A stretch of 63,724 nt of DNA, the filler included, from Kipferlia bialata (taxonomy: Eukaryota), in the NCBI GenBank assembly GCA_003568945.1. It is 6 parts of 6 records of this genome, joined end to end, with 100 filler letters (N's around TTAATTAATTAA, not from the genome) between each part and the next. Parts side by side here need not be neighbours in the genome. Positions count along the whole stretch, not along the records: positions 1 to 13,521 come from BDIP01000936.1; 5 more parts are not named here. One strand, written 5' to 3'. This document shows, piece after piece, positions 1-63,070 of this stretch. How positions within the stretch are numbered: the first letter of the stretch is position 1; every line of letters starts with the position of its first letter. The notes under the pieces were generated by a model. The model worked only from the letters and a program-made list of their open reading frames with translations, searched no databases and was not told where the DNA came from. The translations under genes and the position numbers were made by a program.

Positions 1-5
1 ATATT

Positions 6-59
<54 letters not shown>

Positions 60-60
<1 letters not shown>

Positions 61-885
61 GCGTTCTCAATGGGCATCAGGCCTGGGGGTGAGGTGTACT
101 GGTATATGGATCATCATATTCATCCACAACATACCCATATACATACTGCACTGTACCTGTGACTATTCACTATGAAATAGTATATATATGAATATTGATA
201 TACCTGTGTCCTGACTGGCTGCCTGGGACAGAAGGCCAAAAGCACCGCCTGGGGTAGGGGGTCATATATGTATACATATGCATATATATACATATATAGT
301 AGTAGAGAGTGCTGGAGGAGAGAGAGAGAGAGGGAGATATAGTACAATGCAGAGGAGACCAGAGGTACCACATGGAGTGAGAGATATAATACAAAGAGAC
401 AGATTATGAGATTGTAAATCCAACATAAACGGCGGATTAGAAGTCTGTAGCAGTATTGCTTGATTACATACCCTTGCCCTCGGCAGCTGCCCTGCTCCTC
501 TCTCTCTCTCTCTCCCTCATTCAAAACATGTACATACATACTATATATACATATACATATATATATACATATATATATAGACTTACCCTTGCCCTCTGCC
601 GCTGCCCTGCTCCTCTCTGTCACGTTCTGGAGGACACCAGCTGGGTGTTAGATACACAAGCACATATATATAGAGAGAGAAATGGATAGTGACACACTAG
701 ATGTTCAAATACAATAATTCAAAGTATAATTATAATATATTCAGTACTATATCCGTCTATACCTCTGGGTGGAAAGAGTCCTGATGGCACCTCTCCCGCA
801 GATGCTCCCTCTCTCTCTCCCTCCTCCCCTGTCTCTCCGGCATCGGATGCCAGGACATTGAAGGGGGTGCTCTCCTATAGGGTAA

Positions 886-939
<54 letters not shown>

Positions 940-2519
940 AAGATCTCATCAAATACACATACTCTACCTGGTTCTCCTGGGGTGTCTCATACACCCAGCA
1001 TATATATATTTATATATATGTGTGTGTGTGTATATATAGTATATTGTATATAATGGAATGTAATCATGTATATTCTCTACCTGGTTCTCCTGGGGTGTCT
1101 CATAGACAGTGGAGAGGGGGAACCTCTCTCCCTCCACAGTGGGGGTATCACTGGTGGCGGTCTTGGCTGAAAGTGAGACACTATATACTATATGTATATA
1201 TAGGGAGAGAGAGAGTATACAAGTGGCGGTCTTGGCTGGCTAATCAGAAACATGTATACACTATACATGCAAACGTGGTAGGTAAGATATAGCACTACAT
1301 AGGTATCTCCATATTTGTATACAAATATAAACACCAACTCCTGGGGTGTCACTGGGTACAGTCATGGCTCATAGTGATGGGGTTTGACACTATGAATATA
1401 TAGAGTACTGTATAGTGTTACATAAGGTCTACACATACCTGGGTACTTTACTGGGTATGGCGTCACACTAAGAGGGAAGGCAGTGGATAGATGGGACACT
1501 GACTGGGAGAGAGAGAGAGAGAGAGCGCTGTCCTCCGTGTCACTCTCGTCAGTATCCACATCACTCCACTCGCCCTCTCCCTCTCCCTCTCCCTCCCCCT
1601 CCCCCTCTCTCTGCCTCCATCTGGACACCCTGTCTGCCTCGACCTCCTCGTCACTGTCCTGGGGTTATATAATATATAATAATATACACTATAAATACAT
1701 ATACTAAATCGTCACTCTCCTATGGTTATATACACTATGCACTACATAGTAATCTACACTATATATATATATGTATACATATATACTATATATATATATA
1801 CTCTGTCTGCCTCGACCTCCTCGTCACTGTCCTGACGGGTGAGATAGTGCACATAATATACATACAGTAAAAGCCACCATGTAGAGTCGTCACTGTCCTG
1901 GGGGGTTACCCTTCTAACCGTCATTGCATCTCTATAAGGATATATACCGCAATACCTCTGTCTCCTCGTCTGATGTCTGCCCCTTGTCTCTCTCTCTCTC
2001 TATATATATATCTATATATATATATAAGTACTATCACTTCCCTGTCTTACCCTAGCTCCACCCATGTCTCTGACCCCCCGAGGAAGGCTCTCTCTCACAC
2101 ACTTACTCTCCTTATACATATATATACCCTACCTCTGTCTCCTCGTCTGATGTCTGCCCTTTCTCCCTCTCCCTGTCACTGTTCATCAGTCCATAGGAGT
2201 AGGACCGGTGGCCGGTCTCACTCTCAGACAGACAGAGCCTACTAATCAGAAGGAGTTAGTGTTACACTGATAGTACAGGTATATATAGAGTATGTACAGT
2301 ATGACTAGGACCGATGGCCTGTCTCACTCTCGGAGAGACATAGTCTAGGGAAAGTAGTGTATATATACAAATATCTATATATGTACAAATACATATATAG
2401 AGAGAGAGAGAAATAGAAGACTAGAGTATATATAGGGCCAGAGAGAGAGAGGAGTCAATCTCAGACAGACATAGTGTAGGGTATGTAGTGTGTTTATACA
2501 AATATGTAGTATAGATATG

Positions 2520-2552
<33 letters not shown>

Positions 2553-2858
2553 TATGCCCTGTGGCCTGGTCTCACTCTCACACAGATGGAAGAATAATAG
2601 TATGCACACTATAAAAATTTAGAAATAGATGAAAGCTGTTGTCCTTGAAAGAATTAGTACTCATAGGAACTCTTCCCCAGAATCATAGCCATATCTACCG
2701 AATCCAACACCACTCCTACCTCTCTCCCCCAGTCTCCCTGCCACTGCCACTCATGTCTGTCTCTCTCTCTCCCTCTACACCCTTTCTCCCTCTGTGTGTT
2801 GATGGGTGGAGGATGGGCTGGTACTGGGGCTGGGTGATCTAGACATTAGAAGGTATGC

Positions 2859-2899
<41 letters not shown>

Positions 2900-3787
2900 T
2901 GCAGGATAGGCTGGTACTTGGGCTGGGTGATCTAGCGGTTAGAAGGTATGTATTTACATATATATAATGATGTATAAGGTATCAATAAGCATATATTTAC
3001 ATATATAACACATATATGATGGGCTGGTATTGGGGCTGGGTGATCTAGATGTTAGGACGGAGTGTTATACATTCACACACGTAACTGTGTAAATAAGAGA
3101 TTCTCAGTAAAAGATACCCATAGAGACCTCCCAGGGTAGGCAGTGTGACGAAGAGGTACTGCCACATACCATCTACATACAAATGAAAATGTATAATAAC
3201 ACATACGTGTATATACATAATAATACATACGTGTATTCCAGTATAACATCTAACACTTAGTGTGTATGTCCATACCTGGTTAAGCAGTGTGGCGCATAGG
3301 TACTGCCACAGACCAGCGAGGGACCGGTTGAGGACATCGACGTCCTGTCGTGAGGGGATATTCACATATATAGGAATCTGTATAGAGAGAGATATATCCG
3401 CGAGGGACCGGTTGAGGACAGGACATCGACGTCCTAGGGTGAGTATGCACATGCGTCAATATGAGTATGTACAAGAGGGTATGCAGAACAGTACACACAC
3501 GCACACAGTGAAAGAGAGCTTAGATAATGAACGGCTGAGGACATCGACATCCAATGGTAAGGGGCCAGAGAGAGAGAGAGGGAGAGAGAGGGAAAGAGGA
3601 TATATGTATGTATCCCTATACAAACCTGGCTAGTGGGGTTGGATAGGGTATCCCCTGTCTGTGTCCTCTCTCTCTCTCTCTCTCTCTCTCTACATGTAGA
3701 TATATACATAGATACGTACCTGGCTAGTGGGGTTTGACAGCGTGTCCCCAGTCTGTGTCCTCTCAATGAACTCTCTCTCTCTCTATC

Positions 3788-3819
<32 letters not shown>

Positions 3820-6800
3820 GATATGTACCTGGCTAGTGGGGTTACTGAGTGTGTCCCCAGTCTGGGTTCTCTCGATGAACTCGAGGAAGTCTCTGGCGGC
3901 ACTAAGAAGGACCTATAATTAGAATACATGGAGAAAGAGAGAGATATCCATGAACTGAGAGAGGGGGAGAGAGAGATATCCATGAACTCTAGGAAGTCAC
4001 GGGCGGCACTAAGAAGGACCTACAGTAACGGTATACTAATGTACATATCAATATACAGGGGGTGCGAAAGAGAGAGAAACTGAGAGAGAACATCAATCTC
4101 TAGCGGCACTAAGGTGGAAGTGTTTGTATACAATTTGTCATTTTGATATAGATCTACTTCATATCACCACATACCTCGTCAGGATCCACCCCTCCCTCCT
4201 CCCTCTCCCCAGGCCACTGCTGGGGCAGGGGGATCTTCTTGGTGCGGCGCCTGGATGTTGAGTACGTGTGAGTGTTTCGCATATAATAGCAATTGTACAA
4301 CTGCAATGATTATACAGTTGTAGGCACATATGATGTCTGGTCATTTCCATACCTCTGCATAACTCTCCACCACTGGGGACCCTTCTCCCCACCCTTCCCC
4401 TTCCCCTTGCGCCCTCTCCCTCTCCTACCCTTCCCCCTCTGGAATCTCTCTCTCTCCCTGTCCCGGTCTCTCATGCCATACAGCCTCACACCCTGAAGGT
4501 AAAAAGGGTGTAGGAGGAGAGAGTATGTGTATTTGTGAAAAAGGGTGCAAGCGGAGAGAGTATGTGTGTTTGTGTAAAGAGGGGGCAGAGAGAGAGAGAG
4601 AGAGAGAGAGATACCTCAGGTGGACTGGTACTGGCCCTCCTCAGTACAAATATACATGTATATACTATAAGTATGGTCTTATCACATGCAAAATACATGT
4701 GATTTAGTATAGTATGTATGAATTATGTATAATATATGTACCTCAGGTGGGCTGCTGGTACTGGCCCTCCTGAATACATATATATACAAATATATACTAT
4801 GAATATACTATTAGTATTTTCAGACATAACACTATATACTGTACATATATGTAATGAATATAGCACATATATGTAATGAATATAATTCTATAATAATCAT
4901 ATACCTCAGGTGGACTACTGGTACTGGCCCTCCTCAGTGACCATCCAACATCCTCCTCTCCCTCTCCCTCTCCCTCTCTATCCCATAGAGATGAGGATGT
5001 GTGGATGCCACGACCGGCGGTAGTCTCTCTCTCTCTCTCCCTCTCTGCCCCCTTAGGGCCGGGCCACTTGAGACGCTGGGGATGAATACACTACTAAAAG
5101 CAATAGCATTTTTACTCATAGTTTATACTCTATACTCATATATGTCCACTTCAGACGCTGGGGATAAGTGTACACAATTATGTACAATACAAGACTTACA
5201 TTATATATGCTATACATACCTGGGGCGATATAGACAGAGGTGAGCGTGTGAGTGGCGACAGGGCATGGCTGAAGTGGCCCATGGAATATATATGTATATA
5301 CATATATAATCTATATAGAATATGCAAGGGAAGTATATCACATGGTATATGTATGTGTGTATTTGTATATACCTGGGGTGATATGGAGAGTGGGGATCTG
5401 GTCAGAGGTGACAGTGCATGGCTGAAGTGGCCCATGGAGTAGTCCCCATCCCCATCCATCTCTCCCTCTATGCGCATGGTGGGGAGGGGTGCCCTTCTCT
5501 AGGGGTGAGCACAGTAACAATATGTATATACTATATATATATATGTATATGTATATGTGTATATATGTATATATATTGCGCATGGTAGGGAGGGGGTGCC
5601 TTCTCTGGATATAAGAGAGTACAGAGATGCTATTGTATAAGTCCAGCTGACCAATTATTGCTCTCTATGTACTATATGTATATATATGTATATATATGTG
5701 GATGCGCATGGTGGGAAGGGGGTGCCTTCCCTAGATGTGAGTGTGTTGAAACACCATATACATACTATAAATATATATGTATGTATATATTGGTGTACAT
5801 ATATATATATATATTATACTTGTTAGTATACACATGGCAGGCAGTGCAGGTCTATTCTAGGGGTGAGCACAGTAACCACTATCCATAATAGTGCATATAT
5901 GTACTCTATAGATGCCTCACTCTCTCTCCACATAGTGTATATATATACGTTAAGAAATTCATATATATACTCTCGTCAATACACACCCATATGGGTATTG
6001 GCCTATATGTTATGTGTATACATATATCCTTCAATACAAGCGTACCTGCATCGGTGGGCTCTCTCTCTCTCTCTCATGCCCCTGCCCTTCATACATGCAT
6101 ATACACGAATAAGTACATACACTTCTAGACACTCACATGTAAATAGTTAGTACCTGCAGTACTATTATAAGCGTTACTACACATCCTACCTGCATCGGTG
6201 GGCTCTCCCCCATCCCCCTGCCCTTCATGCCCTTGACAACGCCTGGGGGGTTAGATTGTGTATGTGGCCAGAATTCATGGTATATGTGGTATAAAGTAGA
6301 GTATATAGAAACGCATATATACTATATCCTTGCTCTGCATGCCCTTGACAACGCCTGGAGGGTTAGAGAGATATAGTAGAGGAATATATAGTGTATAGTA
6401 TATAGTAGACCATATATATAGTATATAGTAGATCATATATATATGTAGTTTAGTAGGGATATATATACAATGAATCAAGAAATCCTGCCCTTCATGCCCT
6501 TGACAACGCAGGGTTAGGCAGACATAGAATTTATGTATGTGGACAGGGAGTAAAGCAAACGGCTGGAGGTAGAATTGCATTGAGCCCGTCAAGTATCCTG
6601 TATGACTACGCCTGAGTGCATATATATAGAGAGAGTTATAGAGTACACCCAGCCTAGAACGACCCTATGGACAGCATGGAGTCATACCATATGTATATAT
6701 ACAAGTACATAGTATGCTTATGATACTTATACATACTTCCATAAACATGTATCCGTATATATATATATGTACATACCCTTGAATGGCCCTATGGACAGCA

Positions 6801-8972
6801 TCGAGTCGATGGCCTTCTGCCAGGCAGAGGAGGCATCTGAGGATTAGACACAAAAGAGTATATATATATATAGAGTATATATAGAGTATATATATATATA
6901 TATAGGGAGAGGAAGTGAGAGTGAGAGAGACAGAGATACAGGGTTCTGCCAGGCAGAGGAGGCGTCTGGGGGTTAGACACATATACACACGCACATCTAT
7001 ACACAAATTGCGATTACATGTGAAAGGTATATGAGTCAATATTATTTAGGAGATACATGTATGTGTGCAGACAGAGAGATATCAGACGGGGTATCTAGGC
7101 ACGAGAAGTAACTCACACATATCCTCTATAGAGAGAGACCCCATGTATATACACAGGGGGAGGCTCAACCACTCACCCTCGACCTCTGGCTCTGCGGGTC
7201 TATCTCTCTCCCTGTCTCTCTCTCTCTCCCTGATCACGATGGTGTCACTGGGATGAGTATATATATATATATATACATAGCACATACTATACAGATAGTA
7301 TATACCACAGCCCTCTCTCTCCCCCTGATCACAATGGTGTCGCTGGAATAAGAATATATAATAGTAGTATATTCTCATGTGTCGCTGGGATGCGGCTGTT
7401 ACACTATAAACTATGTATGCTCTATATGCATATGCATAACACACACTCACACTCACCCCTTTGCCTTTAATAAAGTAATTAGTCAGTATAAGGACCTGTA
7501 TACTAAGATATGTATACAATACATCTATATATAGTATACTCACCCCTTTGCCTTCCTGGGGTTCTTGGCCAGGTGGGCCTGGAAGCGCTTGAACCTAGGG
7601 GTTAAGAGAACTATACATATATAATCAAATGTGTGTATAGCAGTAGAATAGAATAGATTAGATATATATGTGTGCCAATGTAAATAGGTGGGCCTGGAAG
7701 CGCTTGAACCTAGGGTGTTAGTGTGCACGTAAATTTGTATTCAAATATACATTCATATGTGTGTGTATGTGTGAATGCAAAGGCAATAGGCCTTGAATCT
7801 CTTAAACCTAAATGTCAATGAAGATGAAGTGTGTCTTCAGATACACGCATAGAGAGAGACACAAATCCGGGCCTATAAACATCACGACCCTACATAGATA
7901 CGTAATCTCATGCACACAATTACACATACCTCTGGAGCGATGCCAGCTTGAGGTTGGACACAGAGCCACCGACCTGGAGTGAGTGACACTTACATACGCA
8001 AATACACACATATATATACACACATATGTATGTGTGTATATTAATATATGTATGTGTAAGGCTTGAGGTTGGAGTCACCCACCTGGAGTGGAGTACATAT
8101 CTACAAGAGTATACATCTGGATCTTGTGGCATCAGTGCAAATATATCAAGCCAGTGCCAGAGTTCCCGGTATACAGGGATATATGTTCATAGATAGAGTT
8201 ATAGTTACCACTATGGAGTTGTATGTATCCTGCGTATGTATCCCAGTACCAGAGATCCAGGCAGTGTCTCTGTCTATACCTCTCGTCAACATATTTACAA
8301 TAATTGAAATACATAAAGTGTATTGATATAATGCGAGAGTGGCAGGTATTATTATGCGTATTAAAACAAAAACCTCGACAACGTGTACTACACACTATAT
8401 TCAAATACACACACCTGGTTCAGCATTCTGACGGATATGCTAGCCACCACCATCTGATACACCACAAAGGCATCTGGCCCCTTCTTAGACCCTTGGGACT
8501 CTGCAACTGTAGCAGTCATGGCATTCCTGGTATTAAATATATATACAATAACATATTTATATATATATACCTATATATGTGTGGAGTATATATTGGTATT
8601 CATTAGTTGCTTGACTGTCAGCCACAGTGGCAGTCATGGCATTCCTAATGATAAGACCATGTGTATGCATCCACAAACACACATGAGTGCATAAGAATAT
8701 GACAGAATGTGTATACTGTATACTACAGCTACATATATACACACCTCAGAGCGTTGAATGCTGCCACCTGCTCTGGGTTGGTCTGGTCGGACAGGTGCTC
8801 TGAAGGGTTAGAGATGTATATATATCCATATACTTATAGAGTTATGTAAATATACAATAACAAGTAGTAGGAGAGAAAGAGATATACTGCTCTGGGTCGG
8901 TCTGGTCGGACAGGTGCTCTGAAGGATAAGGGGATAGTCATGAAGATATAGTTAAATATATATAGTTACTGG

Positions 8973-9006
<34 letters not shown>

Positions 9007-11311
9007 CACTGCTCTGGGTTGGTCTGGTCGGACAGGTGCTCTGGGAGGTTAGGTAACAAACACAAGTATAGATGTCTGTATACACTCACATATATATATA
9101 TAATAGTATCAGAGAGAGAGAGACATATGTTTACTGATATGGGTTGGTCTGGTCAGACAGGTGCTCTGGGGGTTATGTTCAGTATGAGTATATGAACACA
9201 GATATTCCATTATATACTGAGGTGTAGAACATCTACTCATACACATACCTAGTCTCAGGCTGGGAGGCCGTCTCTCTATATATATAATGTATACATATGC
9301 TCTATTCACATATACACATTCATATCGCATACTATACTATACACATACCCAGTCTGAGGCTGGGTGGCCGTATATACACAGGTATATATACAGGTATATA
9401 TATATATGTATATATGGATGGTGCCCCTAGACTAATCCATTAAAGTATAAATATATACTTCTATGCACACCTATTCTCAGGCTGGGAGGCCGTCTCTTCC
9501 GGCCCTTCCTAGATCTCTTGGCCTTGGCACGGCTGGATATGAGTGTAATCACTTGATACATACGTATATACAATAATACATAGTAGCAAATGTATATAAT
9601 GCATGTGTGTACTTCCTAGATCTCTTGGCCTTGGCACGGCTGGATGTAAGGGTATATGTATACACATATATACTAGAGTATTCAGTAATTAATGAATGTA
9701 ACGTGTGAATATCTAACGGCTGGAATCAGAACAACAGAACAATAACGAACAAAAACGAACAAAAACGAAGAACAAGGAACAACACAGAACATGGTTGGAC
9801 AAGGAAAGGCTGCGGCAAGAGGATCCACAATATATACACAATAATACTGGATACAATACTGACGTATGAGGTTAGTAATTATGAATATGAACAGTATAAT
9901 GTATTTGCACACACACCTAGACCCGTAGTCAAAGCTATGCCACCAGCCCTCTATATATGTATGTATATATACTTATATATATTAATGTATACACACATCT
10001 GTATGTACCTATATATTCATACATATGTAAATGTATACAATTAGGTATACCTAGACCCATAGTCAAAGCTGAGCCTCCTCCCCAAGGGCTGTCTACCACC
10101 CCTCTCTCTCTCCCTCTCTCCACCTCTCTCTAGGGTGGAAGGAGAGTCAGGGTCACGCTTCTGGAACCTATTGCATTAGAAACATGGATAAGACAGATAC
10201 AATATATGAATATATGTCATACAATCAGTATCTCTTCGGAGAGTCAGGGTCACGCTTCTGGAACCTGATATAGGTAAAAGGGAGTAGTATCAATATATAT
10301 AAGTAACACAATACAGTCTATCCAATACCTTAGTGTCCACCCCCTCCTAACCCTGTCTCTCTCTCTCCACATATCTACCTCTCCATCTATATTCATACTA
10401 ATATAATGATATACACAAACACGATAGAGTTGCAGTATAGCACATGAGTATACCTGGGCGTCCACCCCCTCCTGACCCTGTCTCTCTCTCTCTCCAACTG
10501 TCTCCTCCTCTTCTTCTGATGGTTAGGACATACCCATATGCAAACAGTGCCAAATGTTAACAGAAAACATGTGATACACTCCGCCTATATCGTTACCTTC
10601 TGCTTGGGTGTCAGTTCATCATATAACCAATAATCCAACCGATGACTCTCTCTCTCTCTCTCCTTCTATATATATATACATATATATATCATGCATTCAG
10701 TATATATTTATATATATATATATACCTTCTGCTTGGGTGTCAGCTCATCGTCAGTGTGCACTAGCCTGGAGTTTAGAAGGGGTATACTATCACTATTGCA
10801 AAAAATGGATTTTATAGACCTCCCAATGGAAAGGTATTGTGGATTAGAAATACTGATATATTGATTGATTAGCTAGGGGATGTGAGTGCATCCATGGTAT
10901 ACAGTCAAGAGAGAGATTCCGATCAATTGACTGCAGTCAATCAATCAATAAATCAATCAATTGATTACCTGGGTGATGTGAGTGCATCCATCGGAAGGTC
11001 CATCTCGTTGGTGTCTCTCTCCCTCTCGCTCTCCCGCTGGCTCCTGGGGGGTGAGTACAGACATGTATACATACTATACATACATCTACATACTATATAT
11101 ATACTATATATACTATACTATAGATACTATACATATATACACTATATATATTCTCCCGCTGGCTCCTGGGGGGTGAACACCTCTACACACACACATCTCA
11201 CACCTCTCTACTAAGTATATACCTATATACTATACATGCATCAATCTCTCTCTCTCTCTCAATATATATATATCCTATACATACCTAATCCCTCTCTTGT
11301 GATGTCTGGCC

Positions 11312-11349
<38 letters not shown>

Positions 11350-13150
11350 GTGTGTGTACATGTGCATATTACCTTATGCCCCTCTTGTGATGTCTGGCCC
11401 TCTCCCTGGCTATCTGCATCTCTCTCTCTCTCTNNNNNNNNNNNNNNNNNNNNNNNNNNNNNNNNNNNNNNNNNNNNNNNNNNNNNNNNNNNNNNNNNNN
11501 NNNNNNNNNNNNNNNNNNNNNNNNNNNNNNNNNNNNNNNNNNNNNNNNNNNNNNNNNNNNNNNNNNNNNNNNNNNNNNNNNNNNNNNNNNNNNNNNNNNN
11601 NNNNNNNNNNNNNNNNNNNNNNNNNNNNNNNNNNNNNNNNNNNNNNNNNNNNNNNNNNNNNNNNNNNNNNNNNNNNNNNNNNNNNNNNNNNNNNNNNNNN
11701 NNNNNNNNNNNNNNNNNNNNNNNNNNNNNNNNNNNNNNNNNNNNNNNNNNNNNNNNNNNNNNNNNNNNNNNNNNNNNNNNNNNNNNNNNNNNNNNNNNNN
11801 NNNNNNNNNNNNNNNNNNNNNNNNNNNNNNNNNNNNNNNNNNNNNNNNNNNNNNNNNNNNNNNNNNNNNNNNNNNNNNNNNNNNNNNNNNNNNNNNNNNN
11901 NNNNNNNNNNNNNNNNNNNNNNNNNNNNNNNNNNNNNNNNNNNNNNNNNNNNNNNNNNNNNNNNNNNNNNNNNNNNNNNNNNNNNNNNNNNNNNNNNNNN
12001 NNNNNNNNNNNNNNNNNNNNNNNNNNNNNNNNNNNNNNNNNNNNNNNNNNNNNNNNNNNNNNNNNNNNNNNNNNNNNNNNNNNNNNNNNNNNNNNNNNNN
12101 NNNNNNNNNNNNNNNNNNNNNNNNNNNNNNNNNNNNNNNNNNNNNNNNNNNNNNNNNNNNNNNNNNNNNNNNNNNNNNNNNNNNNNNNNNNNNNNNNNNN
12201 NNNNNNNNNNNNNNNNNNNNNNNNNNNNNNNNNNNNNNNNNNNNNNNNNNNNNNNNNNNNNNNNNNNNNNNNNNNNNNNNNNNNNNNNNNNNNNNNNNNN
12301 NNNNNNNNNNNNNNNNNNNNNNNNNNNNNNNNNNNNNNNNNNNNNNNNNNNNNNNNNNNNNNNNNNNNNNNNNNNNNNNNNNNNNNCTAATACCCCTCTT
12401 GTGATGTCTGGCCCTCTCCCTGGCTATCTGCTTCTCTCTCTTCATCCTGCCCTTGTCCAGCTTCCTAGGGGGTTAGAATGGGTATATACACAATATGTAT
12501 AGTATATATATAATGATATTACTATGTATGATACTATATATGATATCATATATCTATCTATATATATATATATATAGTAGTAGTAATAGTAGTAGTAGTA
12601 TATAGTATATAGTGCATATAGTACATGTGGTATCTCTCTTCATTCTGCCCGTGTCCATTATCTTAGGGTTAGAATACACATACATAGATCGCATTGAGTA
12701 TATATTGTGTATAGTGTAGTGTATACTGGAGTATTCCAGTTTCCTCGGGTAAGAGTGTATATCCATACATTTAGAATGCTAGAATATAGTGATATCGAAT
12801 ACTATATGTCTCTCTTCATCCTACCCTTGTCCAGGTTCCTATAATAATCAATTGATGATAACCAATCAATCAATTGATTACTATACATACACACCTAATG
12901 TGCCTGGCTCTCTTTGCCATCAGCTTGGCCCGTCGCCTCCTCTCTCTCTCTCTCTCCTTCTCCCCCTCTCTCCCTCTCTCCCCTGTGTCGGAAGGGGTGG
13001 CTCTAGGCATATCGAGGGGGAGAGGCCTCCTGGGGGTAAGGAAGAGATGCTCACTCATACATATACATATGTGTTATATGGGTATATATGCCCTGTGTTT
13101 GAGGGGGTGGCTCTAAGCATATCCAGTGGAAGGGGGCGTCTGGAGTGAGA
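60..13150 (-). CDS. Large multi-exon hypothetical low-complexity protein (partial, about 30 short exons)
   Basis: GC-rich blocks bounded on the minus strand by CTNAC..YAG acceptors and GT donors splice into sensible peptides (RNAMTATVAESQGSKKGPDALVVYQMVVASISVRMLNQ; VLLSAARDFLEFIERTQTGDTLSNPTSQ; FKRFQAHLAKNPRKAKG). No family recognised; it could be more than one gene. Confidence 0.55.
11434..12386. other. Scaffold gap (N run)
   Basis: Plain N run; smaller gaps near 50866-50967 and 62533-62565. Confidence 0.98.
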
Positions 13151-13299
13151 TTGGTGGGAGAGAGAGACAGAGTAAGAGAGAGAGAGAGAGGCCTAGGCAT
13201 ATCTAAAGGAAGAGGAGACCTAGAGTGAGAGAGATAGGACAGACAGAGAGAGAGAAGATGATAGAGAGACATGACCTAGGCTCAAAGATGGCACCTTAG

Positions 13300-13383
13300 A
13301 GTGTGTGAGAGAGAGGACAGAGAGAGTACAGAGAGAGGGGACAGAGAGAGAGAGAGAGAGGACAGAGAGAGAGAGAGAGAGGG

Positions 13384-13417
<34 letters not shown>

Positions 13418-13464
13418 AGAGAGGCAGTGTCTGAAGTAGTATGGTGAAGGAGATTGAATGGGAG

Positions 13465-13521
<57 letters not shown>
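13300..13521. repeat. (GA)n / GGACAGA microsatellite at segment end
   Basis: Long GA runs seen directly; similar (GA)n, (TA)n and poly-G/C tracts occur throughout introns and at most segment ends. Confidence 0.95.
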
Positions 13522-13621
13522 NNNNNNNNNNNNNNNNNNNNNNNNNNNNNNNNNNNNNNNNNNNNTTAATTAATTAANNNNNNNNNNNNNNNNNNNNNNN
13601 NNNNNNNNNNNNNNNNNNNNN
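13522..13621. other. Artificial 100-bp spacer (N44-TTAATTAATTAA-N44)
   Basis: Six-frame stop linker flanked by Ns; identical spacers at 27121-27220, 40717-40816, 54309-54408 and 60185-60284. Confidence 0.97.
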
Positions 13622-14206: not shown

Positions 14207-14560
14207 AGGCTAGGAGAGTGTTTCTAAGAGGTTACACATAGTATGTTGCATCATGGAGAGAGACCCCCCATATGTATAGACACTAGTGATAGTTGTGCAC
14301 TATATTGGTATAGTCACATTTAGTATAGAGCAATATGTATTAGATCCATATCTAGTAATTAGCAGCATCGTAATAGATTTCGTGTATTGTCCGTGACGTG
14401 TGTATAGATACATACCGGAATTCACCATAGAATATAGTACCATTCTCTACAGATATCACTGTACACTGTATACATCCTGATCTAGGATGCATTTGTTCAC
14501 TCCTATTTGGGTTGTTCTCTATATTGTGTCTCCCTCACTGCACTAGAGAGCATTGACAAT

Positions 14561-15533
14561 ATGAACTCCACCGTTGGAGAGACACATGTGTCACCGCGAA
14601 TTCCTGTTGTGGCTCGACCTCAGTGTGTGACTGCTATATCAGACACACAGGTATAGGTGTAACAACACAGATGGAATGATACGTCTCACACGCCAAATGC
14701 CATGTCTCTGGCTCTTTGGGTAGTACTCATGACCAGGCCCTGCTGCTAGTCTCTCAGACTGGCCCCACCAAGACCTGTCTCCTCCTGACCACCCACTCAG
14801 ATGGGTCATTCTCAGAGGAGGGGCTGCCATGCCCCATACTCATACAGGTACTGCCTCTACTCTTACAACACCACGTTGTCACACGATATATGGCTGCCAT
14901 TCTCTTCTCCCTGACAGCACAGTGTAAGTGCTACGGAGTCAGAGTGGGTAGAGACCTTCTGTTTCTCTGCTACGACCCCCACCACGATCCCTTCCGCCAC
15001 ACCCTGTATGCACTCTCAGTGGGTACCATGGAGTGGAGGGTGGCACAGGAGCAAGGGGTCAGGCCTCCCAGGATGACAGCACCCACTGTATTCAGGTGTC
15101 ATATCAGACTGTTATGACTACAGTTCAGTCTGACTCTCACTACCACACTGCTTACAGACCACGAATTACACTATGCTAACTACAGTCAAAGGAACACCTT
15201 CTATATCCACGGAGTAGAGTATGTGCGGAAGGAGAAGTCTCTACAGAAGTGGTGGGAGGGCTTTGACACTGAGGTTCCCAAGCCGGAGTTCTGGGCATAT
15301 GCGCCACACCTTGGCACTTGGGAGAAGGCTCCTACCCCACCAAAGCGTCTGAGACGAAGGTACTAATACGGAATTTCACACTCACTGTGACAACTAACGA
15401 CAGAAAGCGTGTCCGTCCCCATGTAAGACGCACACCAACAGTGCTTGTAGGTACCCACAGGGTATGGCGAGTCCATGCACTGACAGTGACCAAGAAAGGG
15501 CTGGACAATGGGTGCACGGACAGTCCTGTGTGA
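14561..15533 (+). CDS. Divergent kelch-like beta-propeller protein (spliced)
   Basis: Peptides CLLLTTHSDGSFSEEGLPCP, LYALSVGTMEWRVA and FWAYAPHLGTWEKAPTPP resemble kelch blade motifs and other ORFs in this window. Confidence 0.45.
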
Positions 15534-15703
15534 AGATGGGAGATGACCACATGATTGCACAATAGGTCCTATTAGAACTGATCTGAATCATTGAGGCGGT
15601 AGTTTAGTAATCTGGTTGTGTCTCACTACATACTCCACCATTCTTTAACACTTCTTATCAAACATCTATTATCACCGTCTCACTCTCTGTCTCATCCCTA
15701 TCC

Positions 15704-18315
15704 TCACACGATGGTGAGGTTGTATGTCACATCCACCACCAGACCGAAGTCCACCACCTCCGCATACACTCTAAGGGAGTGCTCCCCCATGGACAGGTTA
15801 GGGATGACCACGTAGTACCCGCCCCCGCCTGCCTGCCACAGACCCTCTACGTCGTAGTCGAAGATGGAGCCGTCAAGGACCTCCTGGATGTAGGGCTTGG
15901 ACTCGTAGTAGTAGGATGGCTCGATAGGGGGGAGAAGCGAGGTGGTGACTCCGTCTAGTGTGAACTGGAGGGGATTGGTCAGCTCGGTGAAGACGCTGTT
16001 GTAGAATAGGCGCAACCCCTCCAATGTGGAATCATCCGGCTCACTGAAGTACCTGTGTTACTAAGAATGGAGAGTTCCGAATTGCCTTATCACAAGTATG
16101 CTAGGTTGGCATATACATACCCGTTAAAGACTGGTACCACAATGTCGCGGCCATACTCGACGGCACAGTCTCTAACAACAGGACCGATTAGACCCTGAGT
16201 GCCTGCCAGATACCTGACTAGTTAACACTGAGTGTTGTACTTGCGATACATAAGTAACGTACTCTCTATAATATGGCGAGATTTATAGTAGCTATTCCTC
16301 ACCATGCCGTCTGAAGGTCCTGGTGTAGGCCGCATCTCTCTCCCGTTGTGTCACTCATGGGGTTGTTGTCCAGAGGCTCAATGCTCGCCCAGTTCCTGCA
16401 GTGAGGGTCATACAATATCCAACATGTCTACAAATGGCCAAAGACCCACATACCACCAGTCTCCATTGACATCGCCAGCCGGTCTAAACTGCATGCAAGT
16501 GGCATCTTCCACACCACAGGAGGAGTGATGGAGGTCGTCAATCCACTGAGGTGAGGCACTTATAGGAATGGTGTGAAGAGTACTAGTGTATATAACCGCT
16601 AGTGGTCAGCAGTACCTGTGGACATTCCAAGGCATTGCCTGCAAGGGTCACCTCCCTCAGGCCACCCATCTGGCCTGGTACCAACTGGCTCATGTCAGGC
16701 ACCTCGCCATTGATCTCATTGCACTCTAGACGCAGGCTCTTCAGGTGCTGCATTGACTGGGATTGGTATAGGCTAAATACGACTTCTATAATGATCAATC
16801 GTAGAGAAGCACATATAACATGCCAATGCACCCATATACCTGCAGACACTCAGGTAGGGCACCCGTGAACCTGTTGTTGTCGAGCAAGGCATACTTGAGG
16901 TAGGGCAAGGCACAGAGGGGGTCGATGTTGGTGCCACTCTCGATATCGTCACACCTTGACTGGCCGAAGTGGTTGCCTAATGGTAAGAGTGGTCGAAAGT
17001 GCAACGACAAAGTAACTCAGTCAAGTACCTGTGAGGTCCAAGTGCTGCATGTGCTCAGGGAGAGGGTGTATGGCACCCCTGAGGCCGTTGTTCCTTAGGT
17101 AGAGGGTCTTGAGCTGGGGCAGGCATTGGAGGGCAGGGTGGGCATACCCGATGAGGTTGTTGTCGCTGAGGTGGAGCTCCTTGACGGTATTGGGAGTGCA
17201 CACGCCAGGCACGTAAGAGTCGCACTCACATATGACACCGAAGTACTGGAGGTTAGACGGCATGTGATGTCCATAGCCTACACTTCTCATCAACAGATAA
17301 TGACTGAAGACTACCACTGAACAGCACCATACCTCGCACACGTCAGTGCCAGTCCAGCCTGTGTTGTTGGTCCAGTTGTCGCCTCCAGCAGCCTGTGGGT
17401 AGAAAATGTGTTGAAATCAGATATGATTATGATAAGAGTGTCCCCCAGTGGGAATACAGTGTATTCAATACACCGCATATATGATACATGACGTGCATGC
17501 CACGCGGCTGACCTGGTAGAACATGGCCAGTGCGGCCTCAGGGGTGGCAGGACACTCAAAGTGCACAGGGATGGCATCTATCTCCAGGGGGATGGCCACG
17601 CCGATCTCCTCGTCCTGGGTCAGTGTATTGTGTATGTGTCAAGGCAAGACAGGTAGGCAGATGATGTGAAGGGAGGGGATGTGGGAACAGTCATGAACAC
17701 ATCAGCTAGTAGATACTGACAATAGACCCCCACCCACCTGATGTGCGTACACAGCCGACGTAGGCAGGAATGGTGTGATGGCGTCACTGGCAACATCCAC
17801 CTGGAAGCCCAGGGAGAGAGAGAAGGGGGCGTCGCTGTCGATGTCACCCATGTAGAACCGCAGGGCCACGGCGCCGTCGGGGTAGTTGTAGACATAGTCA
17901 GGCTCGACGGAGACAGACTCGAGGTCGATTACGGTGGTGCAGGGGGCGACAATGTCCAGACGGACATCGGTGTTGATAAGCTGGTGTGAGGCAAAGAGGA
18001 GCGAGATTAGAGAGGACTTGTGGTCCTACGGGTGAACAGTCGGAGAGAATAGCGTATCAGTGATAAGGGCCGCCAAAGCCTGAGTCAAGTAGTGACTGAA
18101 CTTGTGTGTGACGATAGAATTACATGTAGGAGGTGTGTTCTTACCTCAGTCTCCGCCTCTGTGACGTTGACGGTGAGCAAGGCCGTCTTGGGGTTGGTAT
18201 CGCCGCTGGCCAAGTATATGCCGCCCTCTGGGGTAGTGATAGAGGCCGAGGCGTCCAAGGCCACGGAGAAGGAGAGCAGGAACAGCAGGATCAGGCAGCA
18301 CACAAACACCCTCAT
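15704..18315 (-). CDS. Secreted/surface leucine-rich-repeat protein (plant-type LRR with N-cap)
   Basis: Signal peptide MRVFVCCLILLFLLSFSVA; N-cap ALAMFYQAAGGDNWTNNTGW..C..FGVIC; repeats VKELHLSDNNLIG, LKTLYLRNNGLRG, LKYALLDNNRFTG, LKSLRLECNEING. Confidence 0.8.
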
Positions 18316-18589
18316 CGAGTAGTGTCTGGTAGAAACGTGATTGTTCAAGGATGCTTCCGAAGCTGTGCGAAGCTGCGACTTATGGTATCAGCGTCTGAAG
18401 GTTTCAACCCAGAATCTGAAGCTACCAATTGTCTGAAACACAAATCATCTCAACAGTTACATCACAATGCATACGGCGCCATGGCTGAAATGACAAGTCA
18501 AAATTTACTCTAGAACGAGGGAGACAAATAGAAATCGGAAACACGTGAAACATGGACATAAAGTATTGTCGAACTGGCAGTTCAACTGC

Positions 18590-18611
18590 CCCTCACAGTG
18601 AGGGCCTCACT
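18590..18611. mobile_element. Putative DNA-transposon excision footprint, T=CCCTCACT
   Basis: CCCTCAC-AGTGAGGG-CCTCACT = T[1-7]+revcomp(T)+T[2-8]; a variant scar lies adjacent at 18571-18590. Confidence 0.6.
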
Positions 18612-18750
18612 TCTTGACCTTGGTCTTCAGGGGTCCAACCCCTGCTAAAGACACTGTCCACACAGCCAGTAAGACAATGACCACCACTGAGGTGATGGAG
18701 ACTGGGGTGGTGCCCTTGACGCCTCTGTTCTTGACGAGGATGCCTAAGGT

Positions 18751-18789
<39 letters not shown>

Positions 18790-19273
18790 CGGGGGGGGGG
18801 GGGGGGGGGGGGGTCACGAATAGCTTCCCGACACCATACCGTGATCATAATAGCCAGAAGCTGCACAAAGTACCTTGAACAGTGCCTTCCAGAAGGTGAC
18901 ACCGACATATGAAACCCTCCTACCCACTACACGTCACATATACACACAGACCCTACCTCCACATTCCTCTTGAACTTTGACCTGGTCAGACTGTGCTGGA
19001 TAAAGTCAAGGGCATCTCTAGGGGTTAGTATAGGTTAGTATTCAGGAAGAGAGACTGGATAGATATGGACTGAGAGACAATATCCGGTCAGATGCACTTC
19101 TCTGCGGCGATATGGTCCTCTGACACCACCCTCACCTGCCGGATATGTCCTTGACAGACGATATCTGGGGCAGAGCGGGGAGGGATGGCATGGTCTCCCA
19201 AGATATGCAGGTCAAGAGAGGTCCTGACATGAGATACGTGGGATACTGTTGATCTGTCAGAAAACATCTCCAT
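18607..19273 (-). CDS. Possible small protein with C-terminal transmembrane helix
   Basis: Last exon can read GILVKNRGVKGTTPVSITSVVVIVLLAVWTVSLAGVGPLKTKVKK*; upstream exon phases could not be fully reconciled. Confidence 0.3.
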
Positions 19274-19602
19274 ACTGGATTATAGTACCCACAATGTACA
19301 GATATACCACACTAATAGCACTCACACTGTGGTGTGGGTCAGAACACAGGGGAGTCTCGGTTCTCTGTAGTGGCAGAGGAAACAGCTGGAGCTGCGAGAT
19401 GCCTTCTCTCTGTTGGCACAAAAACTGTAGGGGTGTAGACTCGAAGACGGATTTGTCCCAGCGAATTGTTCATCGTCTCTAATTGTTCTGTCCACTGGCT
19501 TTTTTGACCATATCTGCTCATTTCGTCTTCAATGAACGTAGAGCGCAGAGTATTCCCACAGACGGATTTAGACGGGATTGAACTAGAACAGGATAGTGTC
19601 AG

Positions 19603-19624
19603 GTCCTAAGTTAGGACTCCTAAC
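19603..19624. mobile_element. Putative excision footprint, T=GTCCTAAC
   Basis: GTCCTAA-GTTAGGAC-TCCTAAC. Confidence 0.6.
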
Positions 19625-19984
19625 AGTATATACTCCTAACATAGGAGTCATTCACTGACTGGCAAAAAGAAATTTTTGGAATGAGTCGAATAATGAGTCA
19701 CTCACCTAGAGTGTGTTCTATTGATATAGATATAAGATATTAGACACAGTAGACACTATAGACATAGGGACTCTTCTTGTAAGACGTGTTGCTCCAAGTC
19801 TAGGAGGCATATACTTCCCACCCTTGACCCTGTATGTATTGCCCACGAGTTGCCTCAGAGGTGGAACCGTGCCTCTGTTCCCTTGGGCCACTCTGTGTGC
19901 ATCATGACTGGGCGCAGGTCGAGACCAGGTCTGGTGTTAGAGGGGTGGTAGAGCAGGTATCAATTACTGAATCTGGCCCAGGCC

Positions 19985-21250
19985 ATCACACCAACCCTGG
20001 GGTTGGTGTGATGGTATAGTAGGATTCAATCTTCCAATCCATACACCAGTGCCTGTGGCTTCTTAAAGGAAGGAAGTACCAATACTAAGACAATAGGGAT
20101 TAGTCATATGGACGTAGTACGTCACGTACACTCTGTCAGGGTGGGTGCTCCACTGGGAGTAGACACCAAGGCGGCTGAAGATCTCAGGCTTGAAGCCATC
20201 GGGCCTGGGTCAGTTCACCAGTGACATATAGAGCTACAATGGCTACATACTATTGGTATATCGACGAAGAGGCCCGTACCTGATACCACTCCCTAGCAGT
20301 GCCTCCACTTGACGCAGTGTCTTCTGCAGATAGGCATGGTCTCTGAAGTCTGGGCACCTCACACACACGATGTACATCCTGACATGGCCGTCGTCACACA
20401 GCTGCCGTTAGTCTAATGTGGATATATATACTCTAGAAATAGCTCATGATAGAACTTCTATCATCGAAGATATGATAGAATGTCGTCGTATAGTGGTATA
20501 CCGTTGAACAGGCCCTACCTTGGGGACGCAGGAGCAGGCACAGCCCAGAAGATTGTGTCTGTCTCCGTCGATGCCATTCACAACAGCCCGTGCCACCTTG
20601 GGCCACACTGTATCAATCTGATGGTAGTGGACAGTGTTCACTGAACACCCTACATAGTATAGTATTGTAGTGTACACCCAAGGTAAGAGGACTCAACACT
20701 ACTCCTATTACTGTAGAAGTGTATACACATGCTACTTACGTCTCTGGGTACAATCGGTATCAACAGCTTTGTCTGTGTGTGGCCAAGTGGGACAGTGGCA
20801 GCAAGGATCCTGTCTCTTACATCCTGTGTGTGAATCACAATGGGATACACTGAGAATTCTTTGTGGACATATACTACCCTAGAAGTTCAATCTCATTCAT
20901 GACCTGCTTGTACTCATCTGTGGGGGCCTTGTTCTGCAAGAACATGTCCACGATGCTCTTGTACTGAGGCAAGGCTCTCACTGTTTCGAGGTCGTAAGGA
21001 ACAGGGTTGTTCAGGTGGTTGGCTACCATCAGGCATCTCACTCTTCCGTCATCCCTTCGCTGCTCTGATGGAATGTGGTGGGCCAGGTAGTCCTCAATAG
21101 CCTCGCTGGTGCCGTCGAAGTGGATACGGACCTGATTATTGGGATACAATTGTAAAAGAGATATAGTATCGGTTTGGCAACTATATGTATGTGCAGAACA
21201 GATTGTACCTTTGGTGGCTGGTCCTGGTGGTATCGGCTCTGAGCGTACAT
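19985..21250 (-). CDS. DUF1917 / UPF0696 (Bles03/C11orf68-like, eIF4E-like fold) protein
   Basis: Spliced motifs HQIDTVWPKVARAVVNG, YIVCVRCPDFRDHAYLQKTLRQVEALLG and GFKPEIFSRLGVYSQW follow the family pattern D..W..va.a...G / icVy..Df.D / yKpD.yT.LGiY. Last exon uncertain. Confidence 0.65.
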
Positions 21251-21566
21251 TGGATTCAAGGCAATAACCAGTGTGTACTAGGCGCTGGCGATAGAAGAAG
21301 GAGGGGGCTATTAGATCACTGCGTCGTGGAGGGTATCTCCAACAAGCCCTAATCTGTCACCGCCGCTAAATACCGTAGACTCTACAGTATCTGGTCCTGA
21401 TTCAAGGAACACGGTCTAGCTTTTCGCGGAATGACTAATGCGACACCTAGTCAATATATAAAGTACACTGAACGGTCCAGGACCAATGAATACAATTTAC
21501 TAAAGATGGTTTCTAGAGCAATAAGCTGGCTCTCACGACGGTTATGTCCTATGAGATGCTCTTGAC

Positions 21567-22530
21567 TCAAGTGAGGCTCTTAAGTCTGATAACCTCACCT
21601 GTCACAGTATCTAGCACGTTACCGACTGTCATGCCATATCCTGTGTAGCTTTGATCAGGAGCCACTAGACACCGCTCTGAGCCGAGATGAAGGGGTCGGT
21701 CTGCAAGGAAGACTTCTGGTAGCTCATAGTGGAGGCTGCAGTGAAGTCTATCCTTTGCTTGGTGGCCAGGTTCACCGTCATACTCACGGTCCATCATCTG
21801 CCAGCCTAGTTTCGGAGTGTATCGTGCCCAGAAGAGGTAGGGTTGCACACGCATGTCTAACTGCTGCGCAAACAGACAGGCCCCGAAGGGAGTTTGACAG
21901 AAGGTTAACCTCTTGCACTTGGGTAGGCTGCAGGGAGTGTGTGTCCAGCGCCTCTCTTCGTACTCCAAGTTGGACAGCGCACGATATGTCTTGGAACGTC
22001 CCATGATGCTGGAGTATACAACAAGACTACCCTCGTAACAGAAGATGGCTCTGACATATGGCCTGTGGTCCCCGCTTCCATCACCCTCCCCAGCCACCAG
22101 GGCCTGTGCAAGTACAGGTGCGAGGTCAATGTCACTCCAGATGTGGTCGTCAAGGGAGAGCACCTGGCACCTCAGGTGGTCGGCAGGGTATGACTCAAAG
22201 GCAGGTACGGCATTGCACACGTAGACTCTGCAGCCGTCACAAGCGAGTAGTGGACAGTGATAGAAGGTGACAGGGGAGACCACTTCCTCTTCCTCTGCTG
22301 TACCGTCCTCCAGAATGGTGATGATTGAGCATCTGCGGTCACGTCCAAGAACAAACGCCTGGAGTCATGCAACTTCTATAACAATCTTTCGACATACTAT
22401 ACTGATGTCTACTCGACTATAGTCACTGTATGCCTCACCTTGTTGTGCCGAATCTCAATCACAACTGAGGATCTAACCAGTAGAAGGCTGTCCTGTGAGA
22501 GGCTGGAAACCCAGTGCCGAGAGCTGCAGA
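21567..22530 (-). CDS. Divergent kelch-like beta-propeller protein
   Basis: 238-aa ORF extends upstream in frame (AFVLGRDRRCSIITILEDGTAEEEEVVSP) to an acceptor near 22360, with another exon at about 22440-22530; motifs VLSLDDHIWSDI, RYTPKLGWQ, VLDTVTGE. Confidence 0.55.
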
Positions 22531-22729
22531 GTGACACACTAGTGGGATAGGGATCATTCTGTACTGTGAGAGGTAGTGATCAAACAGTAATTTACAGTCT
22601 GACAATATCATAGTCTACAGTAGTACACGATCTTGGCATAATGGGATATATATGCTAAGGAAGTGTCAATGAGCTGCCTTGTGCAACCACGGTAACAACG
22701 TATGGGTAGTGCTACACCAGTTGATAGTA

Positions 22730-22751
22730 GATGTAAGTTACATCATGTAAC
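22730..22751. mobile_element. Putative excision footprint, T=GATGTAAC
   Basis: GATGTAA-GTTACATC-ATGTAAC. Confidence 0.6.
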
Positions 22752-22915
22752 ATATATCAGATACACATACCACATCACTGGCCATAGTGGTGCCGTAGGT
22801 CGGGCCGTACTCCCATGTTAGCTTCCCAATGGGAGCCTCTGTGTCAAGTGTGGACATTCCAACTAATAGTCAGTATGGGGGCGAAATTACTGAGCCTAGT
22901 AGCTGGTAACGATTA

Positions 22916-22937
22916 CCTGAGAATCTCAGGCTGAGAT
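22916..22937. mobile_element. Putative excision footprint, T=CCTGAGAT
   Basis: CCTGAGA-ATCTCAGG-CTGAGAT. Confidence 0.6.
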
Positions 22938-23338
22938 AGACTGTGTTATCGTGTTTGTTGAAAGAGCGGCAAGATGGGTACATACCGTGTAGTGTACACC
23001 GTGATGGTCCACTATGTCTACAGTGCTGACACTCTCACCATCACCTGTAAAGTCGACTCAAAGCTTGACATTTCCGCAACACTGTTTAGTCAAGAGGGAA
23101 GTGTAAACAGTGATCTCGAGACCCTTCCTGACCTCATAGCAAAACACTAAACCACAACAGACCACACTGATACTAGGCCTAGTCTAAATCTAACATCGTG
23201 TAGACACAATAGCCACTAACAGCCAACAAGGTCTATACCTCTTTGGAGACTATATCCTCGTAACATACTGAACAGTGTAGCCATGAGGAGGTCATTGATA
23301 TGAGACCAACATTGTAGAGTAACAATGGAAATAGCTGA

Positions 23339-23986
23339 CTAGCCAAAGCTAAACCTGGGCCAACCATTGTCTTCAGCCGTATGTCTAGGTGCGTTCGCTC
23401 CTGTCCCAAACCCGAACCCAGGCTGAGTAGTAGGATTCGGCGGAGTAGGGTTTCCAAAGGCAGCCAGCCCCACAGCACGCCCGTGACGGCCCCCAAGTAT
23501 CCTTGTTAGAGGGACACTAGCCCGCTGTCTAGCAGAGTGCTCTTCGAGAAGTGCAGTGCGCTGCCTAAAGGCCTCGGGATCATCCCAATCCTCTACCCTG
23601 GGTGTCACTGACTGCTCACTAGAATACATACTTAACATATATCATTGGTCACTGGGGGTGTACTACTCCGCTACTCACCTTGCGTATCCCATGGCACTGT
23701 TGGGGTACACGAGGTCTGGGTGTATGGCAGCGTCGTGGGTCTTGTTGTGTCTGTGCATCGTCACCCTTGTGTCATCGGTACTGGATTCTATACTCAGATC
23801 CAAGTGCCCACGCAAGGTGCCAGGCTGAGAATGAGTCGAGGCATTCTTAATTTTTTTATATATATAGTATGGATATATATATGGATAGACAAGACACCTC
23901 ACTGTAGGAGAGTGTACATCATATGGAAGAATAATCGGTGTTATTACATTACCCACAGGGTAACCAGTCAACGCTTCACCAGCCAT
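23339..23986 (-). CDS. Hypothetical protein with FG-rich C-terminus
   Basis: GC-rich exon-like blocks with splice signals; last exon VEDWDDPEAFRQR...AFGNPTPPNPTTQPGFGFGTG...RFSFG*. Confidence 0.35.

Positions 23987-34866: not shown

Positions 34867-34897
<31 letters not shown>

Positions 34898-63039: not shown

Positions 63040-63070
<31 letters not shown>

What the first reader, a model, noticed from the sequence alone, without database searches (positions are those of the whole stretch)
3626..4019. One exon with spare copies on both sides; three DNA spellings of RTQTGDTLSNPTSQ
Minus-strand exon 3829-3912 ends AGA ACC CAG ACT GGG GAC ACA CTC AGT AAC CCC ACT AGC CAG|gt. Copy 3720-3773 reads AGG ACA CAG ACT GGG GAC ACG CTG TCA..., and copy 3626-3667 reads AGG ACA CAG ACA GGG GAT ACC CTA TCC.... 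All encode the same peptide, Ser is AGT, TCA or TCC, and each has a GT donor. Both copies start out of a (GA)n run at a GAG microhomology. An acceptor-side copy (to 4019) has CGT for AGA and CTA for CTC.
Basis: seen in the sequence. Interest (0 to 1): 0.8.

Follow-up and report, generated by a model that had tools for sequence, protein, structure and literature searches.

The report
Stacked retired exon edges in introns
In this free-living protist, about four in ten introns examined carry stacked partial copies of the neighbouring exon edges with intact-looking splice signals; the message skips them where checked, yet they differ from the used exon mostly at silent positions, so they are likely once-working edges picked up from other alleles by recombination.

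Summary
In detail: three spellings of ERTQTGDTLSNPTSQ, each followed by GT, plus an acceptor-side copy; every changed codon in these three copies is silent. It is not a one-off. In this Kipferlia bialata-type window, 48 of 124 modelled introns hold such copies. Exon starts lie only upstream of their exon and exon ends only downstream, and 72 of 84 copies keep AG/GT. Single-base codon changes are 107 of 139 synonymous, against 26% expected by chance and 41% for a neutral duplicate. Between neighbouring units the intron parts are only about 61% alike, the exon parts about 92%. A spliced contig uses the whole exon 3912-3829 in its own spelling and skips all 9 copies in range, so these are not alternative exons in that contig. 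Closest known: amphioxus 'mirage' repeats. A word search of the scan's notes showed mirage-like cases on other DNA, none in this genome. Best reading (0.55): retired working edges, stacked and refreshed by recombination between very divergent alleles that pair only in exons. No second allele was available to test this.

The parts
3829..3912 (-). Used exon, 84 nt, phase 0 (VLLSAARDFLEFIERTQTGDTLSNPTSQ)
   Evidence: X2 record 9 lies on 3829-3910 with 0 other letters, joined to 4173 and 3344; open frame in the chain
3774..3828 (-). Used donor GT plus 55-nt intron head ending in (GA)n
   Evidence: first 20 nt match the next head at 17 of 20 (0.13% of 7626 random head pairs reach this)
3720..3773 (-). 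Donor-side copy 1 (exon end, 6 silent codon changes, GT kept, no acceptor)
   Evidence: skipped by the spliced contig
3671..3719 (-). Unused GT plus 49-nt intron head ending in (GA)n
3626..3670 (-). Donor-side copy 2 (7 silent codon changes, GT kept)
   Evidence: skipped by the spliced contig
3552..3625 (-). Inner 74-nt intron core, from unused GT to a decayed acceptor (TG)
3982..4019 (-). Acceptor-side copy 1 (exon start, AG kept, CGT for AGA, CTA for CTC)
   Evidence: inside DNA contig X1 record 8 (3829-4574); skipped by joint 3910/4173
4097..4119 (-). Decayed acceptor-side copy 2 (AG lost; 2 non-silent, 1 silent change)
4175..4250 (-). Upstream exon
   Evidence: X2 record 9
4353..4492 (-). 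Second upstream exon
   Evidence: X2 record 9
3276..3344 (-). Downstream exon
   Evidence: X2 record 9
3400..3433 (-). Acceptor copy of exon 3344 (AG kept, small internal duplication)
   Evidence: inside X1 record 7; skipped by RNA
3532..3551 (-). Decayed acceptor copy of exon 3344 (TG)
3132..3171 (-). Decayed donor copy of exon 3344 (GT lost, 6 non-silent changes)
3018..3044 (-). Acceptor copy of exon 2838 (AG kept)
2899..2931 (-). Acceptor copy of exon 2838 (AG kept)
2720..2838 (-). Next used exon
   Evidence: joint 2838/3276 in X2
204..11043 (-). Host gene A, partial: 25 modelled exons, 736 aa open chain, no Pfam family in 5 exons scanned; 21 of 24 introns carry copies
43704..53901 (-). Gene B: 37 modelled exons, 1115 aa, WD40 match in the first exon; 21 of 36 introns carry copies

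Best explanation
These are unused partial copies of exon edges, each with its own splice signal, that were likely working edges in other alleles and were likely stacked into the intron by recombination. Shown: the anatomy, the silent bias, the strong but differently spelled splice signals, and skipping in RNA at the junctions checked. Inferred steps: (1) In a very diverse population, alleles differ at silent sites in exons and far more in introns, so homologues can pair only in exons. (2) A seed unit forms when repair from a homologue ends by a short microhomology join, often between an intronic dinucleotide run and a GAG/CTC/CAC-like spot in the exon. (3) Once a copy exists, unequal exchange or conversion between the copy and the working edge of another allele adds units of about one intron length and refreshes their exon parts with working spellings. 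(4) Only stacks that splicing ignores survive: exon starts upstream, exon ends downstream, with the site nearest the whole exon used. (5) Units that stop being refreshed decay at random.
For: Silent bias: 107 of 139 single-base codon changes against 0.259 by chance (p 3e-36) and against 0.41 for a neutral duplicate of a selected exon (p 8e-18). With one copy per family it is 81 of 103. Copy-to-copy codon changes are 29 silent, 16 not; changes private to a copy are 20 and 10, so the copies themselves were under coding selection. Splice signals of copies score like used sites (donor 2.18 vs 2.32, acceptor 5.06 vs 4.57; random GT -0.11, random AG -10.0) yet share only about 51% of letters with them, against 37-40% for random pairs: alive in separate lineages. 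Intron parts of neighbouring units are 61% alike (null 50%; 11 of 23 above the null's 95th percentile; 0 of 23 at 80%), exon parts 92%. Breakpoints are shared within 2 nt in 8 of 23 pairs against 13% expected (p 0.007). A dinucleotide run continues 3 nt or more into the copy in 8 of 23 junctions against 2.4%. Copies that lost AG/GT show 13 silent and 19 non-silent changes, intact ones 98 and 24 (p 3e-5). At the locus the intron head groups the exon with copy 1, while the exon part groups copy 1 with copy 2: a mosaic. From papers (passages): metamonads lack NHEJ and depend on homologous repair, with alternative end joining in some (PMC8516963); crossovers fall in exons in the hypervariable fungus Schizophyllum (PMC4209137).
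Against: No second allele or strain was seen: X1 shows no other letters where laid, so high allelic diversity is assumed, not shown. For 23 copies with no exon difference the adjoining intron still looks as unlike the used one as random introns do; on the donor side only 1 of 35 flanks exceeds the null's 99th percentile. This needs very fast intron change. The age gradient is weak (signal lost in 1 of 19 nearest vs 7 of 24 farther copies, p 0.05). Non-silent changes show no drift to A/T (21 vs 20), which neutral decay in A/T-rich introns might give. Density is uneven (A 21/24, B 21/36, C 4/41, C2 0/11, D 2/12) and unexplained. RNA confirms only 4 introns; other exon models rest on open frames.
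Confidence: 0.55

Rival explanations
1. Old sister-chromatid tandem duplications (classic mirages) whose intron parts drifted while the exon parts were repeatedly overwritten by conversion from the working exon of the same haplotype; no divergent alleles needed.
For: Intron parts of neighbouring units are weakly related and breakpoints are often shared; copies 1 and 2 are closer to each other (5 differences) than to the exon (8, 9); the layout matches mirages (PMC3087553 passages).
Against: Neutral drift deep enough to leave 61% identity should erase branch-point and donor signals, yet they are as strong as used sites and differently spelled. Copies with 11 silent and 0 non-silent changes (5285-5220, 30131-30186) are hard to get from a snapshot that then drifts.
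Confidence: 0.17
2. The copies are still translated at low frequency, through rare alternative or nested splicing or trans-splicing, so selection keeps them silent-only.
For: 72 of 84 keep AG/GT; about half score above the used site (18 of 36 donors, 15 of 36 acceptors); intact copies are the silent-biased ones. Contigs drop rare isoforms.
Against: The spliced contig skips 9 of 9 copies in range, 6 of them intact. Only 2 of 72 intact copies give an in-frame, stop-free product if their site is used. Only 1 of 39 donor copies has an acceptor-like site at its start. GT-like sites follow 19 of 45 acceptor copies, but 59% of random intronic GTs pass the same bar.
Confidence: 0.1
3. The pieces came by ectopic conversion from diverged paralogues or homoeologues in the same genome.
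For: It would give the same silent bias and diverged introns. The whole genome was not available to exclude it.
Against: No second version 90% or more alike appears in the DNA or RNA contigs laid; up to four spellings per junction would need several paralogues for many unrelated genes.
Confidence: 0.08
4. Assembly artefact: haplotypes or strains written in tandem by the assembler.
For: Fragmented assembly with gaps. Near-identical repeats beside gaps at 48909-49016 and 62462-62511 probably are artefacts.
Against: X1 contigs run through exon plus copies with 0 other letters (2906-3559, depth 424; 3829-4574, depth 443; neighbour 437). X1 holds 0.99 of 1022 sampled words of 1000-10900. Strict polarity and graded decay are not what an assembler makes.
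Confidence: 0.04

Closest known systems
Amphioxus 'mirages' (Adh3, globins BflGb6/BflGb9, troponin C, PGBD5); seen as passages of PMC3087553 and PMC3902484; the original Adh paper was not held
   Same: Tandem repeats of an intron-exon boundary on either side of an exon; many keep AG/GT; normal splicing unaffected; unequal crossing-over proposed.
   Different: BflGb6 units are 81-100% identical; here the intron parts are about 61% alike (none at 80%) while exon parts are about 92% and differ mostly silently. Here 48 of 124 introns are affected, in a unicellular metamonad, against a few animal loci. The passages read report no silent bias ('synonymous' occurs 0 times in PMC3902484; not searched in PMC3087553).
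Human F7 intron 7 VNTR with silent 5' pseudo-sites (PMC1557585, abstract only)
   Same: Repeat spans the exon-intron boundary; the first donor is used and downstream donors stay silent.
   Different: Identical 37-bp units at one locus, donor side only. A 5'-to-3' scan explains the donor choice here but not the choice of the last acceptor.
Tandem exon duplication with mutually exclusive exons (e.g. Dscam; recalled, from no call)
   Same: Diverged copies of coding sequence in an intron, under coding selection.
   Different: Those are whole exons with both splice sites and appear in mRNA; these have one site each and were skipped.
Exon-biased crossing-over in hypervariable Schizophyllum commune (PMC4209137, passages)
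   Same: Recombination confined to conserved exons when alleles are very divergent: the premise of the best explanation.
   Different: Describes clean crossovers, not stacked edge copies; diversity was measured there and is only inferred here.

Membership tests
Mirage repeats | Tandem repeat spanning an intron-exon boundary | tested here: met
   84 anchored copies, spacing median 106 nt, range 69-177
Mirage repeats | Many units keep AG/GT | tested here: met
   72 of 84
Mirage repeats | Normal mRNA is made | tested here: met
   spliced contig skips 9 of 9 copies in range; only 4 introns checked
Mirage repeats | Minisatellite-like identity of units (81-100% in BflGb6) | tested here: not met
   intron parts median 0.61, maximum 0.69, 0 of 23 pairs at 0.8
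Mirage repeats | Copy number differs between haplotypes or cells | not testable with these tools
   one DNA run, contigs only; no variant joint at a copy among 15 of 16 joints shown
Mirage repeats | Concerted evolution within a cluster | tested here: inconclusive
   6 codons where all copies agree against the exon, 30 private to a copy, over 19 families
Mutually exclusive duplicated exons | Each copy has both an acceptor and a donor | tested here: not met
   1 of 39 donor copies has an acceptor-like site at its start; 2 of 72 give an in-frame, stop-free product
Mutually exclusive duplicated exons | Copies appear in mRNA | tested here: not met
   X2 record 9 has the exon's own spelling; rare isoforms would be lost in contigs
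Introner-type mobile introns | Families of near-identical introns at unrelated sites | tested here: inconclusive
   no such family among local repeats; no whole genome held

The most novel reading that the evidence does not exclude
Kipferlia turns over its intron ends genome-wide: recombination between alleles that pair only in exons keeps installing a new working splice junction and shelving the old one in the intron. One genome would then archive several past alleles of thousands of exon edges, tolerated because its spliceosome picks sites across the exon although introns are only about 90 nt long.
Probability: 0.3. Interest if true: 0.85.

Novelty: new variant of a known kind. Interest (0 to 1): 0.62.

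Why it matters
It gives many natural competition tests of splice-site choice in an early-diverging protist: equally strong decoys about 100 nt away are skipped on both sides, including the upstream acceptor. Fungi and protists are inferred to define introns, not exons (PMC2397502, passages), which predicts use of the innermost pair. If the copies are old alleles, population diversity and intron turnover can be read from one genome, and the stacks offer a route to intron sliding and gain. They can also mislead gene finders: my own took several copies for mini-exons.

Tried and rejected
No whole genome is held, so nothing genome-wide was tested. The general repeat finder was swamped by microsatellites; I wrote my own search. 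No RNA holder was listed on record; X2 is a guessed RNA run, although its record 9 joins across four introns. Metagenome scans found no relative of a gene B exon (596 pattern hits, 0 confirmed), and with AdhE only loci at 42-57% identity (80 kept of 578; not examined further), so there is no second strain. An exact look-up of the single-exon gene at 41936-42886 found nothing. Pfam gave nothing for 5 of 5 gene A exons. In-frame swap of a donor copy through the AG of the (GA)n run: rejected by hand, the internal GT in GAGTTC gives frameshifts. Mini-exon reading of the acceptor copies at 9165, 9040, 8918: considered; they would need a partner acceptor inside the exon that keeps the frame, and none does. 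X2 depth near 3437-3516 was read as short low-complexity matches and not used. No A/T drift of non-silent changes was found. Two cited papers were not held. Literature searches without a matching description: 0 papers; 0 papers; two searches returned the two mirage papers.

Full report
Setting. The window is a string of contig pieces separated by N spacers. An AdhE exon at 57563-58795 is 100% identical to a protein named Kipferlia bialata, a free-living fornicate with 124,912 GU-AG introns (PMC5874029, passages). That exon is on another piece; the piece with the finding (1-13521) shares the intron style, so the species is inferred for it.

Observation. Confirmed base by base. Exon 3912-3829 is followed by copy 3773-3720 (6 silent codon changes) and copy 3670-3626 (7 silent), each with GT. 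It is preceded by copy 4019-3982 (2 silent, AG kept) and a decayed copy at 4119-4097. The AGT against TCA/TCC serine change needs two base changes, which points to deep divergence under selection (inference).

Reads. Only 2700-4700 was laid. In X2, a guessed RNA run, record 9 (758 nt, depth 100) lies in five pieces with 0 other letters and 0 gaps: 4494-4352, 4249-4173, 3910-3829, 3344-3276, 2838-2719. It skips all 9 copies in range, 6 with intact AG/GT. In X1 (DNA, possibly the source of the window), records cover 2906-3559 and 3829-4574 at depths 424 and 443 with 0 other letters. The tool skipped 3560-3828. The unlaid ends of those records (128 and 39 letters) would reach the two (GA)n runs, which fits the assembly but is inferred. 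Contigs hide rare variants.

Extent. A self-trained gene finder plus hand correction gave five stop-free chains with 124 introns. Aligning each exon to its flanking introns gave 94 hits, against 17 of 788 exon-intron pairs that are not adjacent; those looked mostly like low-complexity matches. Of 51 upstream hits, 49 begin within 8 nt of the exon start. Of 43 downstream hits, 42 end within 12 nt of the exon end. I dropped 10 hits (3 not anchored, 6 too weak without gaps, 1 beside a gap), leaving 84 copies of median length 27 nt; two zero-difference copies near gaps were kept (50851, 62511). Copies occur in 48 of 124 introns: A 21/24, B 21/36, C 4/41, C2 0/11, D 2/12.

Selection signal. Differences by codon position are 29, 22 and 122. 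Changed codons are 111 silent and 43 not, with 1 stop. Single-base changes are 107 of 139 silent against 0.259 expected from the observed spectrum. A neutral duplicate of an exon that evolves only silently predicts about 0.41 (my calculation), which is rejected, also with one copy per family (81 of 103) or unique changes only (97 of 129). Copy-to-copy and copy-private changes are also mostly silent (29 vs 16; 20 vs 10). Copies that lost AG/GT have lost the bias (13 vs 19).

Intron side. The intron next to a copy is mostly no closer to the used intron end than random introns are on the donor side (1 of 35 above the 99th percentile, p 0.15) and slightly closer on the acceptor side (5 of 44, p 4e-5). 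Neighbouring units in a stack are weakly related (0.61 vs 0.50). Yet splice signals are as strong as used ones and differently spelled. This is the picture of one junction evolving in separate working lineages. Units measure about one intron (spacing median 106, plain introns median 93).

Mechanism. Inferred: a seed by homologue-templated repair finished at a microhomology, growth and refreshing by unequal exchange between a copy and another allele's working edge, and survival only of stacks that splicing ignores. At this locus the used head and the head behind copy 1 match at 17 of 20 bases and both end in (GA)n, while copy 1 and copy 2 share AGG ACA and TCN against the exon. Unequal exchange between two alleles that each held one copy would give this. 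Loss of NHEJ in metamonads (PMC8516963, passages) and exon-biased crossover in a hypervariable fungus (PMC4209137, passages) make it plausible but do not show it. In the spliced contig the sites nearest the whole exon are used on both sides. Choice across the exon would do this; nested removal from the inside out could work for two-sided stacks but not for one-sided ones (inference).

Against. No second allele was found; the age gradient is marginal (p 0.05); non-silent changes do not drift to A/T; uneven density is unexplained, and gene D has the most simple repeats in its introns but few copies; RNA covers 4 of 124 introns.

Known systems. It works like an amphioxus mirage (lead from scan note e1-8148756) but fails unit-wide identity, so I file it as a variant and not as a member. 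It fails the tests for mutually exclusive exons. Nine paper searches showed no description in Kipferlia in the listings, and 'duplicat' occurs 0 times in the main text of PMC5874029. Subscription papers and supplements were not seen and may bear on this. Scan notes: none for this genome or for a Kipferlia word search; two sea-urchin notes describe single loci with silent-biased dead copies (unchecked).

Verdict. Real, window-wide and statistically strong; not alternative exons where checked; most likely retired allelic edges. New variant of a known kind, interest 0.62.

Noticed in passing
window 27309-38421 (+): A long intron-rich chain whose last exons look like a serpin (Pfam Serpin, E 7.9e-5, below cut-off, on 37082-37213). 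It follows an unrelated 1300-aa open chain; fusion or two genes is unresolved around the poly-C at 35510-35600.
   Followed up: partly
window 55724-58798 (+): Bifunctional aldehyde-alcohol dehydrogenase AdhE, 100% to the named Kipferlia protein, few introns and no edge copies found; next hits are other fornicates, then bacteria.
   Followed up: partly
window 61215-63607 (-): Armadillo-repeat gene (weak Pfam Arm match), importin-alpha-like by recall; two acceptor copies at 61438 and 61368 share one breakpoint.
   Followed up: partly
window 53851-54242 (-): At least four acceptor-side units of about 81 nt before exon 53901, more homogeneous than elsewhere and most like a classic mirage; left out of the statistics because the upstream exon is beyond a gap.
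   Followed up: no
window 14400-24800: Intron-rich genes with plainer introns and no edge copies; density of copies differs sharply between contig pieces.
   Followed up: no
window 8887-9165 (-): Three acceptor copies of exon 8799; two stop at the same base (GAGCAG), where a GT-like motif overlaps the end of the copy.
   Followed up: partly
window 3936-3988 (-): A 21-nt internal duplication at the tail of the acceptor copy and its (CT)n run.
   Followed up: no
window 48909-49016, 62462-62587: Exact repeats on both sides of small N gaps, probably assembly duplicates.
   Followed up: partly
window 41906-42889 (+) and 21567-22364 (-): Long intron-free open frames (327 and 265 aa) with no Pfam family.
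   Followed up: partly
window 13566-13577 and similar: TTAATTAATTAA between N runs marks joins of separate contig pieces, so neighbours across them are not true neighbours.
   Followed up: yes
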